From an archaeon (GTDB taxonomy: Archaea > Asgardarchaeota > Heimdallarchaeia > Heimdallarchaeales > Kariarchaeaceae): 24,000 bases of DNA. The stretch is taken from positions 3,868 through 27,867 of the forward strand of contig JAJRQD010000018.1 in the NCBI GenBank assembly GCA_024280435.1, read 5' to 3'. Every line of letters begins with the position of its first letter. Within the stretch, counting starts at the first letter, position 1. This document shows positions 1,578-15,100 of the stretch, piece by piece. The notes under the pieces were generated by a model that ran no database searches, was not told the origin of the DNA, and saw nothing but the letters and a program-made list of their open reading frames with translations. A program made the position numbers and the translations under genes.

Positions 1578-3062
1578 ATGTCAACACCTGAAACATCACC
1601 GATCAGATTAATTATGTTCACATCAAAAGATTGCGTGTATTGTCCACCAGTTGAATCTATTGTACGAGAGGTAATTGGCAGTGGAATGCAGGAAATTGTT
1701 CATGTATCCACTATTGATATCGATGTTGATAAAGAGTCTGCATCTCAATATCATATCAATGCATTGCCAACACTTGTGATCAATGATGAAATAGTACTAG
1801 AAGGTGGTATGGAGGATGAAGCTGTTAGAGACCTCCTATGGTCAACATTGCTCAATTATGCATTCACATCAGGTGAAACAGAGGAATTAATGAAATCGGC
1901 ACTTTTAACTATTACTATGAATTCTATTGATTCTTTGAATAATACATCGATATTACGTCCATCAGTTGGGGATTATGCACATATTAGCACATATCAGTTG
2001 AATTTACTAAGTCTATACAGTCTTGATCCATTGATACCTCATTTTCTTTATCGTGCAGGTTACAAATTAGGAATGTATGGTATAATGCACCACATCTTAT
2101 TAACATTGAATCCAAGCCTTGGTAGAACACCTAAAAGAAAGATGAGATTTTCCAAACTTGGTAAAGCACTTGAATTATACTTCTCTAATAGAGAGATTTA
2201 TTCCACCAAGATTGCACATGGGGCACATGTGGTAGAGCAAACTGAGAATACAATTCATCTGAAAGTATCTGAACTGGCTTCATCATCAATTGGGATAGAT
2301 GTTGGTGAACCAATGTGTGGATTCACAGCAGGACAGTTAGCAGGTGTGACAGTAGCAGTTATGGGTACTGACGCTAGTTGTGAGGAACAGATTTGTCTGG
2401 CCAATGGAGGCGATTTTTGTTTATTCAAAATATCAATTGATCAAGCTTTTAAGAAACCAACATTACCACCCCTTGAAGACAAAGATGAGAGAACTATAAG
2501 AAAGCAAAATTTCTATGAAGTAATTCATGAAACTACTAAAATTATTGAAGATAGTTTGTTGATGCGTAAAGCTCAAAGACATAATGCAGGTGATTTTATT
2601 CATATATCTGTAATACAGCCGATAATTATTACACTCAAACTATTAGATAGATTATCAGGAGTTTTATTGTATTCCGGCGGTAGAGAATTAGGTATTTTTG
2701 GTTCAGGTAAGAATTTACTTTACAGATTAGTTGAAGAAAAAGGAAGTAATGGTATTGTATCACTTGAAGAAGGGATTAGTCTGTTATATGATTATCTAAC
2801 TCATCCTACCAGTCATTTAAGTCGAGATTATGGTAGAGTAAGATCAATAAAAATCGATGAGAAAACATATCATATTGAAATTGAGGAGAACCTCTATGTA
2901 TCGGGTATGAATGTAACAAATTTAGATAAAACATTCTGTGATTTTCAAGCTGGATTTTTTGCAGGTAGATTACAAATTTTGATAGGAACTGAGCCACAGG
3001 TAAAAGAGATCAAATGTCAGGGAAATGGAAACGATATCTGTATATTTGAAGTAAAAATCTGA
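1578..3062 (+). CDS. Thioredoxin/glutaredoxin-fold domain fused to two V4R (4-vinyl reductase-like) domains
   Basis: The N-terminus has CxxC ('DCVYCPP') plus 'ALPTLVINDE', a Trx-fold signature. Each of two halves ends in a V4R Cys pattern: 'CGFTAGQLAGV...EEQICLANGGDFCLFKI' and 'CDFQAGFFAGR...EIKCQGNGNDICIFEV'. Confidence 0.7.
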   Translation: MSTPETSPIRLIMFTSKDCVYCPPVESIVREVIGSGMQEIVHVSTIDIDVDKESASQYHINALPTLVINDEIVLEGGMEDEAVRDLLWSTLLNYAFTSGETEELMKSALLTITMNSIDSLNNTSILRPSVGDYAHISTYQLNLLSLYSLDPLIPHFLYRAGYKLGMYGIMHHILLTLNPSLGRTPKRKMRFSKLGKALELYFSNREIYSTKIAHGAHVVEQTENTIHLKVSELASSSIGIDVGEPMCGFTAGQLAGVTVAVMGTDASCEEQICLANGGDFCLFKISIDQAFKKPTLPPLEDKDERTIRKQNFYEVIHETTKIIEDSLLMRKAQRHNAGDFIHISVIQPIIITLKLLDRLSGVLLYSGGRELGIFGSGKNLLYRLVEEKGSNGIVSLEEGISLLYDYLTHPTSHLSRDYGRVRSIKIDEKTYHIEIEENLYVSGMNVTNLDKTFCDFQAGFFAGRLQILIGTEPQVKEIKCQGNGNDICIFEVKI

Positions 3063-3639
3063 ATAAATAATCATTGCCAAGCTAAAATTTTACATTCAAA
3101 TTGATTTTAGATACCGATAAGTTACTTACTAATATATATAAGTATTTAGCGCCAAATAATCAAGGCCACCATAATTTATGTTTACAGACAGATATGCAAC
3201 TATATAGAGATTAAACTGGTTTAAACTATAAAAAAATATTTTAAATAAATTTTTTAATTCTATATTTTATATAATACAAAAAAATACAATGATAATTGCT
3301 AACTAACGAAAATAGTATCTGAACCAATAATTCATCAAATTACACAAATAATACTATTCTAAGCCAATAAACAACTAATCTGGTACATAATAATACACAA
3401 ATTTATGATTTGATAACTTGTATTACAATATAATAACATTAAATTATTTGAGTACCTATCAAATTCAAGAGGAAAATGTAAATTATGGATATAAGTGGTA
3501 TCAAATCAAATATCACAATTTTTCAATATAGTATACAATTTCGTTTCTATTTCAATAAACTATTCTCGCGATTAAACCTTAATACGACATATTCTTTTTA
3601 ATACTTAGTGAGAATAAGTACAATATAGTCGAAATTTTC

Positions 3640-4215
3640 TTGGAGGAAAAATGTATTACAAGCGAAAGACGTAAAATATTCAAAATTGTGCTCTTAGGCG
3701 ATGGTGCCGTTGGAAAGACTGCACTGCGACACAGATATCTGGGGGACGGCTTCCAGCAATCATATTCAATGACCATAGGGGCTGATTTCGCTGTGAAGAG
3801 GGTCAATCTTGATGGTGAAGAGGTAGTTGCTCAGATCTGGGATCTTGCGGGTCAGATTAGATTTCAATCTGTGCGTGAGGTATATTATCAGGGGGCCACA
3901 GGAGCGTTACTAGTATTTGATATAACAAGATCACCAACTTTTGAAAATATACCCAATTGGATAACAGAGCTTTTAGATAATAATAAAAATAAGATTGTGC
4001 CAATGGTGCTTATAGGAAATAAAAGTGACCTAAGAAATACAGCAGATGGTGCGATTACATATGATGCAGGATTAGAGTATGCACAGAATTTATCTGCATG
4101 GAGCCACTTTGAGATACCTTATATTGAGACTTCAGCACTATCTGGAGATAATGTGGAATCTGGATTTGCGGTTTTACTTAGAAATATAGAAAATTTTCTA
4201 GATTCTTCAGGATAA
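3640..4215 (+). CDS. Rab-like small GTPase (Ras superfamily)
   Basis: G1 'GDGAVGKT', switch I 'TIGADF' (RabF1-like), G3 'WDLAGQ', 'YYQGATGALLVFDIT' (RabF4/5-like), G4 'GNKSDL', G5 'ETSAL'. TTG start; there is no in-frame ATG before G1. No C-terminal Cys. Confidence 0.85.
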   Translation: MEEKCITSERRKIFKIVLLGDGAVGKTALRHRYLGDGFQQSYSMTIGADFAVKRVNLDGEEVVAQIWDLAGQIRFQSVREVYYQGATGALLVFDITRSPTFENIPNWITELLDNNKNKIVPMVLIGNKSDLRNTADGAITYDAGLEYAQNLSAWSHFEIPYIETSALSGDNVESGFAVLLRNIENFLDSSG

Positions 4216-4295
4216 ACTATTTTATAATAAATTATTAACCCTACATCATTTATCGATCGATTATTATTTATAGAAAAATATGTTATTAAAGATAT

Positions 4296-4661
4296 ATGTC
4301 TAGAAGACGCCATAGATCAGTAAATGATATGGATGCATTACTACCAGATGAATTGATTGAAACATCAAGCGGATCTACTGTGAATGAATTGAAAGTAATT
4401 GTGGATCAATTAGAAGAAGAACTCAAAGATGTTATTGGGAAATATGAAGAAAAAATTGCAGATCTAACAGAAAGATTAGAATCTATTGAATCAGATTTCA
4501 AGCAAGTGATTGAAGGTTTAAAAAATGCGCAAGGCGGTGTTGCATCTACACCATCACCCGCTAGCCCAGCAACAGCAGGACCACCATCAACAGGGCCTGT
4601 AAGCCCAGCAGGACCTTCAGGACCCGTAACAGGTGGTCCAAAACCACCAAAACTAGGCTAA
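4296..4661 (+). CDS. Hypothetical coiled-coil protein with a proline-rich C-terminal tail
   Basis: 121 aa with an ATG start. Heptad-like acidic/Leu-Ile segment 'VNELKVIVDQLEEELKDVIGKYEEKIADLTERLESIESDFKQVIEGL', followed by 'STPSPASPATAGPPSTGPVSPAGPSGPVTGGPKPPKLG'. The local GC spike (about 4530-4660) is explained by Pro/Ala/Gly codons. Confidence 0.6.
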   Translation: MSRRRHRSVNDMDALLPDELIETSSGSTVNELKVIVDQLEEELKDVIGKYEEKIADLTERLESIESDFKQVIEGLKNAQGGVASTPSPASPATAGPPSTGPVSPAGPSGPVTGGPKPPKLG

Positions 4662-13532: not shown

Positions 13533-13925
13533 TTGAACAGCTTATTTAATACTCGATACAATAATTTTTTAGTGAATACATTCAATAATTATAATTACTA
13601 TAAATTATTACTGATAATTAGTAGTTTAACACCCTTGAAGACTAAAATACTGCTTATACTGTCACATATATCACCTAAACAATTAACTGCAACTGAATTA
13701 ACTGCCCTGCTTGGTTATTCAAAAAGCTCAAGGATAATCTACAGAGGAGTTCTAGATGAATTGGAGAAAGATCAATTAATAAAATTAGTAAAAATATCAA
13801 AGAAAAAGTATTCAATTCAAATAAACATTAATCATCCAATGATGAATATATTAAATGAGTTAAGCTATGAATTTGGTGAGGACTATTCTCAAAGACTACT
13901 AGATATTTTGGAGGATAGAGAATGA
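13533..13925 (+). CDS. Winged helix-turn-helix transcriptional regulator (ArsR/MarR-like)
   Basis: 'LKTKILLILSHISPKQLTATELTALLGYSKSSRIIYRGVLDELEKDQLIKLVK' has the HTH-plus-wing layout. There is no in-frame ATG before the HTH, so the start is non-ATG and uncertain (TTG 13533 or GTG 13569). Confidence 0.5.
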   Translation: MNSLFNTRYNNFLVNTFNNYNYYKLLLIISSLTPLKTKILLILSHISPKQLTATELTALLGYSKSSRIIYRGVLDELEKDQLIKLVKISKKKYSIQININHPMMNILNELSYEFGEDYSQRLLDILEDRE

Positions 13926-14470
13926 ACAGAATTAATATTAAATTATTAACCATATTTTTTATTATTATAACTATAATCAGCTATAATTTATTGTCATCAT
14001 TGCCAAATAAGGAAATTAATACTGAAGATCAATCTATTAATGAAGTAAGTGAATTGGAAGGTATTGATATTTCACCCACACCAAAGAGATCAATGCATAA
14101 TTTTGTGAGTTCAGTTATAATATCATCAGTTATCATTACATTATTAGCAATCTACTACCAATTTTTTACATTGAACTCTGAGATTAGGAATTACATATTA
14201 TCAGCATTAACACTTGCAGGCTTTAAAAAAACAATGATGAAATTTCCCTCATTGATTGTTAGTGATGAGATACAATTGAAAATAACTGGAATGAAAAAAA
14301 TAAAAATTATTATTACAGGTCCTTTTTATGATAATTATCAAGAATTTGGATTACAAAAAAATATTAACAAAAAACTATCTATTTTATCAAGTAGAATAAT
14401 ATCAGATATAGAATTGTTACCATTAAAATTATTGCTATTCAAAGAGTATATACTTGAAAATAACAAATAA
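13922..14470 (+). CDS. Hypothetical membrane protein (2 predicted TM helices)
   Basis: ATGA start/stop overlap with the wHTH gene. Hydrophobic spans are 'LLTIFFIIITIISYNLL' and 'FVSSVIISSVIITLLAIYY'. I recognise no family motif. Confidence 0.5.
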   Translation: MNRINIKLLTIFFIIITIISYNLLSSLPNKEINTEDQSINEVSELEGIDISPTPKRSMHNFVSSVIISSVIITLLAIYYQFFTLNSEIRNYILSALTLAGFKKTMMKFPSLIVSDEIQLKITGMKKIKIIITGPFYDNYQEFGLQKNINKKLSILSSRIISDIELLPLKLLLFKEYILENNK

Positions 14471-14566: not shown

Positions 14567-15100
14567 GTGAGTTACAAAGCGACATTCAAAATCTTACTTT
14601 TGGGTAACGGGGGCGTAGGTAAGACAGCAGTGGTACAGAGATTTGTTCATGGCAAATTTAAAGAGTCATATCAAATGACAATTGGCATGGAGCCCTATAG
14701 TCGCTATGAAACGATAAATGGAGTGAAAGTTGTATATTCCCTTTGGGATATTGCAGGACAAGAAAAATTCCGTGCAATGCGTCAGATATTTTTCCAGGGT
14801 GCTCGTGGTACGATAATTGTATTTGATCTAACACGAAGAGAATCTTTTGAAAAAATTGAAGAATGGATGGAGGAAAGTAAAGCAGAGGCCAATGATCAAT
14901 TATTTTTATTAATAGGAAATAAGAATGATTTGGAAGATGAAAGAGAGATTTCACTTGCGGAAGCTAATAATTTAGCAAATGAATTAGGTTTTATTGATTA
15001 TATAGAAAGTTCTGCAAAAACAGGAATGAATGTTGAAGCAGCTTTTACATTGCTTGGATCCAAATTACTAGAAAAGTATGCGCCTAAGAACAGAAAATAA
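14567..15100 (+). CDS. Rab-like small GTPase (Ras superfamily), second copy
   Basis: G1 'GNGGVGKT', switch I 'TIGMEP', G3 'WDIAGQEKF', 'FFQGARGTIIVFDLT', G4 'GNKNDL', G5 'SSAKTG'. GTG start. The C-terminus 'EKYAPKNRK' has no Cys. Confidence 0.85.
   Translation: MSYKATFKILLLGNGGVGKTAVVQRFVHGKFKESYQMTIGMEPYSRYETINGVKVVYSLWDIAGQEKFRAMRQIFFQGARGTIIVFDLTRRESFEKIEEWMEESKAEANDQLFLLIGNKNDLEDEREISLAEANNLANELGFIDYIESSAKTGMNVEAAFTLLGSKLLEKYAPKNRK

What the first reader, a model, noticed from the sequence alone, without database searches (positions are those of the whole stretch)
3640..4215. Rab-family-like small GTPase with a DLAGQ switch II and no prenylation signal
Beyond the generic G1-G5 motifs, this protein carries Rab-family signatures: 'TIGADF', 'IWDLAGQIRFQSV', 'YYQGATGALLVFDIT'. 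The G3 Thr is replaced by Leu (DLAGQ versus eukaryotic DTAGQ). The catalytic Gln is retained, and the residue after Gln is Ile rather than Glu. There is no C-terminal Cys motif, so if the protein is membrane-associated it needs a different mechanism. It starts at TTG after a 577-bp non-coding region and is followed by the coiled-coil/Pro-rich ORF.
Basis: partly seen in the sequence, partly recalled or inferred. Interest (0 to 1): 0.6.

Follow-up and report, generated by a model that had tools for sequence, protein, structure and literature searches.

The report
Ordinary Asgard Rab-like small GTPase
The gene encodes an intact Rab-like small GTPase of a Heimdall-group (Kariarchaeaceae) Asgard archaeon. 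The features flagged as unusual (DLAGQ, no C-terminal cysteine) are the published norm for this class of archaeal GTPases, so it is a new member of a known kind.

Summary
ORF 3640-4215 (+, 191 aa) is an intact Ras-superfamily GTPase (Pfam Ras 2.3e-48) with all G1-G5 motifs, Rab-type motifs, DLAGQ and no C-terminal Cys.

None of this is special to this gene:
- WDLAGQ occurs in 117 of 121 sequences aligned (the query plus 120 hits), in most of the genome's roughly 30 strong Rab-like paralogs, and in the solved 'Thorarchaeota Rab' (7EZB), which is the best PDB match.
- No paralog or ortholog carries a C-terminal Cys.
- The genome has 49 Ras-family matches.

By sequence and predicted structure the protein is nearest to Rabs, then Rho and Ras, and well away from MglA, Arf and Rag. 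The genome's own true MglA is a different, very distant gene.

Published work already describes this class, including the missing prenylation site (PMC4915359, PMC10933270). A large published phylogeny places such Asgard 'RasL' proteins with Rab/Ras/Rho/Ran, but not as specific sisters of Rabs.

The gene belongs to a slowly evolving orthogroup: 63-70% identity across its order. In part of the Kariarchaeaceae it sits between a thioredoxin-V4R-V4R gene and a small coiled-coil/Pro-rich gene. That linkage is broken in at least two relatives, and no binding was shown.

The scan has noted the same gene trio in another genome. Interest is low.

The parts
3640..4215 (+). Rab-like (Asgard RasL-type) small GTPase gene, 191 aa including the TTG start; the stop codon is included in the coordinates
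   Evidence: ORF list. Pfam Ras 2.3e-48. PDB best hit 7EZB Thorarchaeota Rab 3.1e-42. AF2 model pLDDT 89.6 with a standard G-domain fold.
3697..3720 (+). G1 / P-loop GDGAVGKT (residues 20-27)
   Evidence: Read from the sequence. G20, G22, V24, G25, K26 and T27 are invariant in 76 aligned orthologs.
3763..3789 (+). Switch I / RabF1-like YSMTIGADF (residues 42-50). Thr45 is the G2 threonine. Met44 sits where Thor-Rab has Arg37 and MglA has its intrinsic Arg finger.
   Evidence: Alignment to 7EZB. Arg37/Arg53 are described in PMC10933270. Y42, G47, D49 and F50 are invariant.
3838..3855 (+). G3 / switch II start WDLAGQ (residues 67-72) with catalytic Gln72
   Evidence: Sequence. W67, D68, A70, G71 and Q72 are invariant and L69 is conserved in at least 90%. 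WDLAGQ occurs in 117 of 121 sequences aligned, the query plus 120 hits.
3883..3927 (+). RabF4/RabF5-like YYQGATGALLVFDIT (residues 82-96)
   Evidence: Sequence. Aligned to the YYRGAVGALLVYDI segment of Rab11A.
4018..4029 (+). G4 NKSD (residues 127-130)
   Evidence: Sequence. N127, K128 and D130 are invariant.
4090..4122 (+). Orthogroup-specific segment LSAWSHFEIPY (residues 151-161). It carries a 6-residue insertion relative to Thor-Rab and Rab11A, and its Trp is nearly invariant.
   Evidence: Gaps in the HMMER alignments to 7EZB and Rab11A. L151 is invariant; W154, P160 and Y161 are conserved in at least 90%.
4129..4137 (+). G5 TSA (residues 164-166)
   Evidence: Sequence. E163 and A166 are invariant; T164 and S165 are conserved in at least 90%.
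3063..3639 (.). AT-rich 577-bp intergenic spacer that presumably holds the gene's own promoter. Neither its length nor its sequence is conserved.
   Evidence: No ORF longer than 38 aa inside it. No Rfam family or tRNA. The same gap is about 130 bp in the 91%-identical relative and 180-195 bp in L006 and L008. There is no meaningful blastn match to the 570-bp gap of G148.
4296..4661 (+). Co-directional small coiled-coil/Pro-rich protein (121 aa) whose relatives mostly end in PKL or PKLG. It is the conserved downstream neighbour in part of the Kariarchaeaceae.
   Evidence: Twelve-member alignment A3. Adjacent to the GTPase ortholog in L005, L006, L008, L013, L014 and G163. No Pfam family above cut-off.
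1578..3062 (+). Thioredoxin-V4R-V4R protein (494 aa), the conserved upstream neighbour in the same subclade
   Evidence: Pfam V4R 5.8e-19 and Thioredoxin_3. Adjacent in L005, L006, L008, L013, L014 and G148. One of only two V4R proteins in the genome.

Best explanation
This is a functional, soluble Ras-superfamily molecular switch of the Asgard 'RasL / Rab-like' class. It is one of about 49 Ras-family genes in a Kariarchaeaceae (Heimdallarchaeales) genome and belongs to a slowly evolving orthogroup found across that order.

Shown:
- The gene is intact.
- All nucleotide-binding and catalytic motifs are present (P-loop K26/T27, switch I T45, D68/G71, Q72, NKSD, TSA).
- The predicted fold is a Rab-type G domain.
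- The Rab-type hydrophobic triad is conserved (F50 and W67 invariant, Y82/Y83 nearly so).
- There is no lipidation site and no hypervariable tail.

Inferred:
- It cycles between GDP and GTP states, with slow intrinsic hydrolysis as measured for Thor-Rab.
- It has Met, not Arg, at the MglA-type finger position, so it needs a GAP acting in trans.
- In the GTP state it binds effectors through the switch/interswitch surface.
- Any membrane or complex recruitment is through protein partners rather than a lipid anchor.

The partners are not identified. The neighbouring Trx-V4R-V4R and coiled-coil/Pro-rich genes are candidates only.
For: Family and fold:
- Pfam Ras 2.3e-48; Arf only 4.8e-16.
- Top 60 PDB sequence hits are Thor-Rab followed by eukaryotic Rabs.
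- AF2 model pLDDT 89.6.
- VIA-align: Rab3C Z 25.6, Rab9A 25.0, Rab27a 24.2, RhoA 23.7, Sec4 23.1, NRas 22.7, MglA 19.2, Ran 19.1, Arf6 18.0, LokiRagO 16.5, HodArfR1 16.4.
- The Foldseek top hits are Rab8, Rab1, Rab11, Rab4 and Sec4.

Class-wide features:
- WDLAGQ occurs in 117 of 121 sequences aligned (query plus 120 hits) and in most paralogs; no sequence has a C-terminal Cys.
- The genome has 49 Ras-family matches.

Orthogroup:
- Best-hit identity is 79-84% within the family, 63-70% within the order and 53-57% within the class; the nearest in-genome paralog is 58%.
- In an ML tree the query groups with 14 sequences from other Heimdall-group genomes (support 94/87), to the exclusion of every in-genome paralog included. 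Branches are short, 0.03-0.3 in all but one member, against a tree-wide median of 0.79.

Internal control:
- The genome's own MglA (C144:4334-4912, best PDB hit T. thermophilus MglA at 7.7e-31, G3 reads TVAGQ) is a separate gene on a very long branch.

Literature:
- Archaeal Rab-like proteins carry RabF motifs and lack the C-terminal Cys (PMC4915359).
- Thor-Rab was solved and has Rab11-like intrinsic GTPase activity. GFP fusions of the Asgard proteins tested in that study were diffuse in HeLa cells, with no membrane targeting (PMC10933270).
Against: - No biochemical data exist for this protein.
- Partners, localisation and cellular role are unknown.
- The deep position within the Rab/Ras/Rho/Ran + RasL clade was not tested here with eukaryotic reference sequences.
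- The N-terminus is uncertain by about 5 residues.
Confidence: 0.88

Rival explanations
1. The GTPase is the core of a dedicated three-gene module. The upstream thioredoxin-V4R-V4R protein (Bet3/TRAPPC3-type fold) would act as a redox- or ligand-gated regulator, possibly GEF-like. The downstream coiled-coil/Pro-rich protein would be its effector, possibly coupling to the adjacent ESCRT-I UEV protein.
For: - The order TrxV4R-GTPase-CC is kept in the window, L008, L006, L005/L015, L013, L014 and the 91%-identical relative. G148 and G163 show parts of it at contig ends.
- In L005 the trio survives without TFE or ESCRT beside it, and the CC gene starts 6 nt after the GTPase stop.
- Only two V4R proteins exist in the genome against 49 GTPase genes.
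- V4R shares its fold with TRAPPC3 (PMC10933270).
Against: - In G178 the block PCNA-GINS-S27e-TrxV4R-CC-TFE is intact but the GTPase is absent from it. Its 83%-identical ortholog lies on another contig beside a 981-aa ORF, in a layout like that of LC_2, where the neighbour is a P-type cation ATPase.
- LC_2 shows the GTPase in that same other context, with no TrxV4R or CC nearby.
- Outside this family the GTPase orthologs have unrelated neighbours.
- With this query the CC protein was found convincingly only in this family, whereas the GTPase orthogroup is order-wide.
- All genomes that keep the trio are close kin, so they are not independent observations.
- Tran et al. interpret Asgard TRAPPC3/V4R proteins as ligand binders, not GEFs.
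Confidence: 0.1
2. It is a true Rab, that is, a specific sister or member of the eukaryotic Rab family rather than a general Ras-like Asgard GTPase.
For: - Rabs rank above Ras and Rho by both sequence and structure.
- RabF-like motifs are present.
- PMC4915359 found archaeal Rab-like profiles closest to Rab.
Against: - No prenylatable Cys and no hypervariable tail.
- No GDI/REP or prenyltransferase alpha-subunit Pfam match in the 84%-complete genome.
- The margins over Rho and Ras are small: Z 25.6 against 23.7 and 22.7.
- A 996-sequence published tree found no Asgard sequences specifically sister to Rabs.
- PMC4915359 itself found the phylogeny inconclusive.
Confidence: 0.07
3. It is an MglA- or Rup-type prokaryotic polarity GTPase that works with a roadblock (MglB-like) partner.
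For: - A roadblock-domain gene lies about 5 kb upstream on the same contig.
- Another roadblock gene lies 2.5 kb upstream of the H. aukensis ortholog.
Against: - G3 keeps Asp (DLAGQ), whereas the genome's own MglA has TVAGQ.
- Met, not Arg, sits at the intrinsic finger position.
- MglA matches at only 22% identity and Z 19.2.
- The genome has a separate true MglA flanked by roadblock genes on contig C144.
- The two roadblock proteins near the orthologs are unrelated to each other (E=11), and neither is adjacent to the GTPase.
Confidence: 0.02

Closest known systems
Thorarchaeota Rab (Thor-Rab, PDB 7EZB/7EZD/7EZE; Tran et al. 2024, PMC10933270)
   Same: - Best PDB sequence hit, at 3.1e-42 and 43-44% identity.
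- Same WDLAGQ G3, RabF-like motifs and short C-terminus without Cys.
- Same single-domain architecture.
   Different: - The window protein has Met44 where Thor-Rab has Arg37.
- It carries a 6-residue insertion with a conserved Trp (LSAWSHFEIPY) before beta-6, plus a 2-residue insertion after G4.
- It comes from a different Asgard class.
Archaeal 'Rab-like' GTPases of Surkont & Pereira-Leal 2016 (PMC4915359), equal to the Asgard 'RasL' group of Klinger 2016 and Vargova et al. (bioRxiv 10.1101/2024.02.28.582541)
   Same: - RabF-type motifs.
- No C-terminal cysteines and a short C-terminus.
- Many paralogs per genome.
- Clusters by similarity with Rab/Ras/Rho/Ran.
   Different: Nothing substantive. 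This is an orthogroup of Heimdallarchaeales that was not singled out in those papers. I could not retrieve the published subgroup label of its LC_2 ortholog (OLS23071.1), because the stored supplement is truncated.
Eukaryotic Rab GTPases (Rab11A, Ypt7, Sec4, Rab1, Rab8, Rab3C, Rab9A)
   Same: - 33-41% identity across the G domain.
- Same fold at Z 23-26.
- Catalytic Gln and the hydrophobic triad.
- RabF1, RabF4 and RabF5-like segments.
   Different: - No prenylation Cys and no hypervariable tail.
- Leu instead of Thr in DxAGQ.
- No REP/GDI, RabGGTase alpha-subunit or TBC-GAP match found in the genome.
- The group is not recovered as sister to Rabs in the published phylogeny.
MglA (T. thermophilus 3T12, M. 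xanthus 5YMX)
   Same: Small prokaryotic Ras-superfamily G domain without a lipid anchor.
   Different: - 22% identity and Z 19.2.
- MglA-type G3 Thr and the intrinsic Arg finger are absent.
- The genome encodes a separate true MglA.

Membership tests
Ras-superfamily small GTPase (Pfam PF00071 Ras; TIGR00231 small_GTP) | Score above the curated family cut-off across the full domain | tested here: met
   PF00071 at 164.2 bits against a 21.6 cut-off, covering profile positions 1-161 of 162. TIGR00231 at 101.6 bits against 42.5.
Ras-superfamily small GTPase (Pfam PF00071 Ras; TIGR00231 small_GTP) | G1 GxxxxGK[ST], G2 Thr, G3 DxxG, G4 NKxD and G5 SA[KL] motifs all intact | tested here: met
   GDGAVGKT, T45, DLAGQ, NKSD and TSAL were read from the sequence. 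They are invariant or nearly invariant in 76 orthologs.
Asgard RasL / archaeal Rab-like GTPases | Closest solved or described relatives are Asgard Rab-like proteins; RabF-like motifs; short C-terminus without Cys | tested here: met
   Top PDB hit is Thor-Rab 7EZB. No Cys in the last 6 residues of 121 orthologs or 41 paralogs. The class features are described in PMC4915359.
Asgard RasL / archaeal Rab-like GTPases | Falls in the RasL + Rab/Ras/Rho/Ran clade of a reference phylogeny | not testable with these tools
   No eukaryotic, Rup or reference sequences were available by reference. Indirect support comes from the structural and sequence ranking. The published tree is described.
Eukaryotic Rab family | RabF1-F5 motifs (IGVDF, KLQIW, RFRSIT, YYRGA, LVYDIT; consensus recalled from Pereira-Leal & Seabra 2000) | tested here: inconclusive
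   The query has IGADF, AQIW, RFQSV, YYQGA and LVFDIT. RabF1, F4 and F5 are close; F2 and F3 are partial. The same pattern is reported for archaeal Rab-like proteins in general.
Eukaryotic Rab family | C-terminal prenylatable Cys motif (CC, CXC, CCXX) after a hypervariable tail | tested here: not met
   The protein ends ...NFLDSSG. Helix alpha-5 runs to residue 190 of 191 in the model. No ortholog has a C-terminal Cys.
Eukaryotic Rab family | Cognate machinery: REP/GDI, RabGGTase, TBC RabGAPs | tested here: inconclusive
   No match for PF00996 (GDI), PF01239 (PPTA) or PF00566 (TBC) in the own genome. The genome is 84% complete, and the TBC search rang in no control genome.
MglA family | G3 with Thr in place of Asp (TxxGQ), intrinsic Arg finger in switch I, and MglB/roadblock partner gene | tested here: not met
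   The query has DLAGQ and Met44. The genome's own MglA has TVAGQ and hits 3T12 at 7.7e-31. No roadblock gene is adjacent.
Arf / ArfR family | Best match to the Arf profile and Arf structures; N-terminal amphipathic helix | tested here: not met
   Pfam Arf 4.8e-16 against Ras 2.3e-48. Arf6 Z 18.0 and HodArfR1 Z 16.4 against Rab Z 25. The N-terminus is about 12 residues with no helix in the model.

The most novel reading that the evidence does not exclude
In one Kariarchaeaceae subclade this conserved Rab-like GTPase forms a working module with a redox-sensing thioredoxin-V4R-V4R protein (TRAPPC3/Bet3 fold) as its exchange regulator and the Pro-rich coiled-coil protein as its effector. The module sits beside TFE and ESCRT-I/II. 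That would be a prokaryotic forerunner of TRAPP-Rab signalling tied to ESCRT membrane remodelling.
Probability: 0.07. Interest if true: 0.65.

Novelty: new member of a known kind. Interest (0 to 1): 0.2.

Why it matters
Asgard Rab-like GTPases bear on how eukaryotic membrane-trafficking switches arose. This gene adds no new principle: its flagged features are the published hallmarks of the class.

Its modest value has two parts:
- It belongs to an unusually conserved Heimdallarchaeales orthogroup, which makes it a good candidate for biochemistry.
- In some relatives it is flanked by a TRAPPC3-fold protein and an uncharacterised coiled-coil protein, which are cheap partner candidates to test.

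Tried and rejected
1. Complex prediction of the GTPase (alignment A2) with residues 1-82 of the coiled-coil neighbour (alignment A3) gave a score of 0.00 in both runs, with the verdict 'no answer'. This is not evidence either way.

2. Roadblock linkage. Roadblock genes lie 5 kb upstream here and 2.5 kb upstream in H. aukensis, but the two proteins are unrelated and neither is adjacent. I treat this as coincidence.

3. ESCRT linkage. The GTPase lies near ESCRT-I/II only in close relatives (the window, L006, L008 and the P0001 contig). It does not in L005, LC_2, G178, the Heimdallarchaeaceae or L007/L009. It is not a conserved association.

4. The 577-bp spacer has no Rfam hit, no tRNA, no ORF above 38 aa and no terminator. 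The sigma-70-type promoter count equals the shuffle expectation, and that scan is not designed for archaea. Neither the length nor the sequence of the spacer is conserved.

5. Pfam searches of the own genome for TBC, TRAPP/Bet3 (PF04051), Longin, GDI and PPTA found nothing. The genome is 84% complete, and three of these searches rang in no control genome, so absence is not shown.

6. I looked for the published subgroup label of the LC_2 ortholog OLS23071.1 in the supplement of the Arf/ArfR preprint. The stored table is truncated and the accession was not found. The file did confirm that LC_2 belongs to the Kariarchaeaceae.

7. A reference phylogeny with eukaryotic Rab/Ras/Rho/Ran and Rup sequences was not possible, because no such sequences were available by reference.

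8. One search was a mistyped, too-short query and returned an error.

Full report
**Where the window comes from.** The window is positions 3868-27867 of contig C335 in a 4.03-Mb assembly of 342 contigs, 84% complete. GC content is about 30%. The neighbouring genes are GINS, ribosomal protein S27e, TFE, a UEV/Vps23-like protein, Vps28, an EAP30 (Vps22/36) protein and Vps25; the partial first ORF corresponds to a PCNA-annotated gene in relatives. The nearest relatives of the GTPase are named Candidatus Kariarchaeaceae or Heimdallarchaeota. LC_2, whose ortholog is 79% identical, is listed as Kariarchaeaceae in a published genome table. The organism is therefore a Heimdall-group Asgard archaeon.

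**The observation.** ORF 3640-4215 (+) is real: 191 aa from a TTG start.
- Pfam Ras scores 2.3e-48 across the whole profile.
- Most orthologs start five or six residues further in, at M-[A/S/T]-ERRKIF. The window has no canonical start codon at that position, and one relative (P0005) shares the MEEK extension. TTG 3640 is therefore the best call, with slight uncertainty.
- The 577-bp spacer upstream holds nothing detectable. It is only about 130-195 bp long in close relatives. It shows no meaningful similarity to the equally long gap in G148.

**What the protein is.**
- By sequence, the best solved relative is 'Thorarchaeota Rab' 7EZB at 3.1e-42. It is followed only by eukaryotic Rabs: Rab11, Ypt7, Sec4, Rab1 and Rab8.
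- An AF2 model built on 76 orthologs is confident (pLDDT 89.6) and shows a standard G domain whose last helix runs to the C-terminus.
- An all-against-representatives structural search ranks Rab3C (Z 25.6), Rab9A (25.0), Rab27a (24.2), RhoA (23.7), Sec4 (23.1) and NRas (22.7). These stand above MglA (19.2, 22% identity), Ran (19.1), Arf6 (18.0), LokiRagO (16.5) and HodArfR1 (16.4). Foldseek agrees.
- As an internal control, the genome has its own true MglA at C144:4334-4912. Its best PDB hit is T. thermophilus MglA at 7.7e-31, its G3 reads TVAGQ, and roadblock genes lie on the same contig. In a tree of the paralogs it sits on a very long separate branch. The MglA alternative is rejected.

**Are the flagged features unusual? 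No.**
- WDLAGQ occurs in 117 of 121 sequences aligned (the query plus 120 hits). A hydrophobic residue at that position is found in most of the roughly 30 strong Rab-like paralogs in this genome, and only two paralogs have DT[AV]GQ. Thor-Rab also has WDLAGQ.
- The residue after Gln is variable in both orthologs and paralogs.
- None of the 41 paralogs or 121 orthologs has Cys in the last six residues.
- The genome carries 49 Ras-family matches.
- Surkont & Pereira-Leal (PMC4915359) reported in 2016 that archaeal Rab-like proteins keep RabF motifs but lack the C-terminal cysteines and most of the hypervariable region.
- Tran et al. (PMC10933270) solved Thor-Rab and measured an intrinsic GTPase activity similar to that of Rab11B. 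They found no REP or RabGGTase homologs, and GFP fusions of the Asgard proteins they tested were diffuse in HeLa cells, with no membrane targeting.
- Vargova et al. (bioRxiv 10.1101/2024.02.28.582541) place Asgard 'RasL' proteins in one clade with eukaryotic Rab/Ras/Rho/Ran and with Rup1/Rup2. They explicitly did not recover Asgard sequences as specific sisters of Rabs.

**Orthogroup.**
- In 201 Asgard genomes the best hit is 79-84% identical within the family, 63-70% within the order, 53-57% within the class and 46-53% beyond it. The nearest paralog in the same genome is 58% identical.
- In an ML tree of 37 own-genome paralogs plus 15 foreign sequences, the query groups with 14 of the foreign sequences (Kariarchaeaceae, Heimdallarchaeaceae and Gerdarchaeota-labelled) at 94/87 support. 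This clade excludes every in-genome paralog included. Terminal branches are 0.03-0.3 in all but one member, against a tree-wide median of 0.79. Deep nodes are unresolved, and the bootstrap had not fully converged.
- This is a slowly evolving, order-wide orthogroup. It has a small specific insertion (LSAWSHFEIPY, with a conserved Trp) before beta-6.

**Mechanism.**
- Shown: an intact catalytic and nucleotide-binding apparatus; a conserved Rab-type hydrophobic triad (F50 and W67 invariant, Y82/Y83 at least 90%; the triad concept is from established Rab structural work); no lipid-anchor signal.
- Inferred: a GDP/GTP switch with slow intrinsic hydrolysis. Met44 occupies the place of the MglA/Thor-Rab arginine, so a GAP acting in trans is expected. 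Effectors would bind at the switch/interswitch face, and recruitment would depend on protein partners.
- Candidate regulators in the genome are five roadblock-domain proteins and the longin-fold domains that earlier notes predict on neighbouring genes in this window. I did not test the longin-fold predictions. No TBC, Longin-Pfam, TRAPP-Pfam, GDI or PPTA match was found, but these negatives are weak.

**Neighbourhood.**
- In the window, the 91%-identical relative, L008 and L006, the gene order is [PCNA-GINS-S27e]-TrxV4R-GTPase-CC-TFE, with ESCRT genes further downstream.
- In L005/L015, L013 and L014 the trio TrxV4R-GTPase-CC is kept without ESCRT or TFE beside it, and the CC gene starts a few nucleotides after the GTPase stop.
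- In G178 the block PCNA-GINS-S27e-TrxV4R-CC-TFE is intact with no GTPase in it. Its 83%-identical GTPase ortholog lies on another contig beside a 981-aa ORF. That layout resembles LC_2, where the neighbour is a P-type cation ATPase.
- Orthologs in other families have unrelated neighbours.
- With this query the CC protein (12 members; basic-acidic N-terminus, coiled coil, Pro/Gly/Ser tail, most ending PKL or PKLG) was found convincingly only in this family.
- The linkage is therefore real but confined to one lineage and dispensable. It makes the two neighbours reasonable partner candidates and nothing more. The single complex-prediction job (GTPase with CC residues 1-82) returned no verdict.

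**Verdict.** The gene is an ordinary member of the well-described Asgard Rab-like/RasL class. The scan has already noted the same trio and the same kind of GTPase in other genomes.

Noticed in passing
window 14567-15100 (+): A second Rab-like GTPase lies in the window (177 aa, WDIAGQ, TIGR00231 2.3e-26). It has a close paralog on contig C92. Two overlapping ORFs without any Pfam family (13533-13925 and 13922-14470) precede it on the same strand.
   Followed up: partly
G000 contig C144:1982-7450 (outside the window): The genome's true MglA homolog is at C144:4334-4912. Its best PDB hit is T. thermophilus MglA at 7.7e-31, and its G3 reads TVAGQ. Two roadblock/LC7 genes lie on the same contig at 1982-2242 and 7187-7450, which looks like an MglA-MglB-type locus.
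   Followed up: partly
L020 (G178:C2:3000-12000), about 2700-4640: In this relative the Trx-V4R-V4R gene is followed directly by the coiled-coil/Pro-rich gene (218-bp gap), with no GTPase between them. The V4R-CC pairing is therefore kept independently of the GTPase.
   Followed up: partly
window 4296-4661 (+) and alignment A3: The small coiled-coil protein family has a strongly conserved N-terminus (MSRRRxR..D[LM]DxLLPxE) and a Pro/Gly/Ser tail, and most members end in PKL or PKLG. It matches no Pfam family above cut-off, and with this query convincing matches came only from Kariarchaeaceae genomes or unnamed metagenome contigs.
   Followed up: partly
L025 2054-2431 (-) = G000:C335:2054-2431, just upstream of the window: A 125-aa roadblock/LC7 protein (PDB 9JUE at 1.3e-10) lies next to a TFIIS-like zinc-ribbon gene. 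The position is the same in the 91%-identical relative's contig.
   Followed up: partly
G123:C46:30087-31395 (L016) and G187:C317:2273-3580: In class-level relatives the best matches to this GTPase occur as tandem pairs of two Rab-like genes, 55-57% identical to the query and about 270 bp apart.
   Followed up: no
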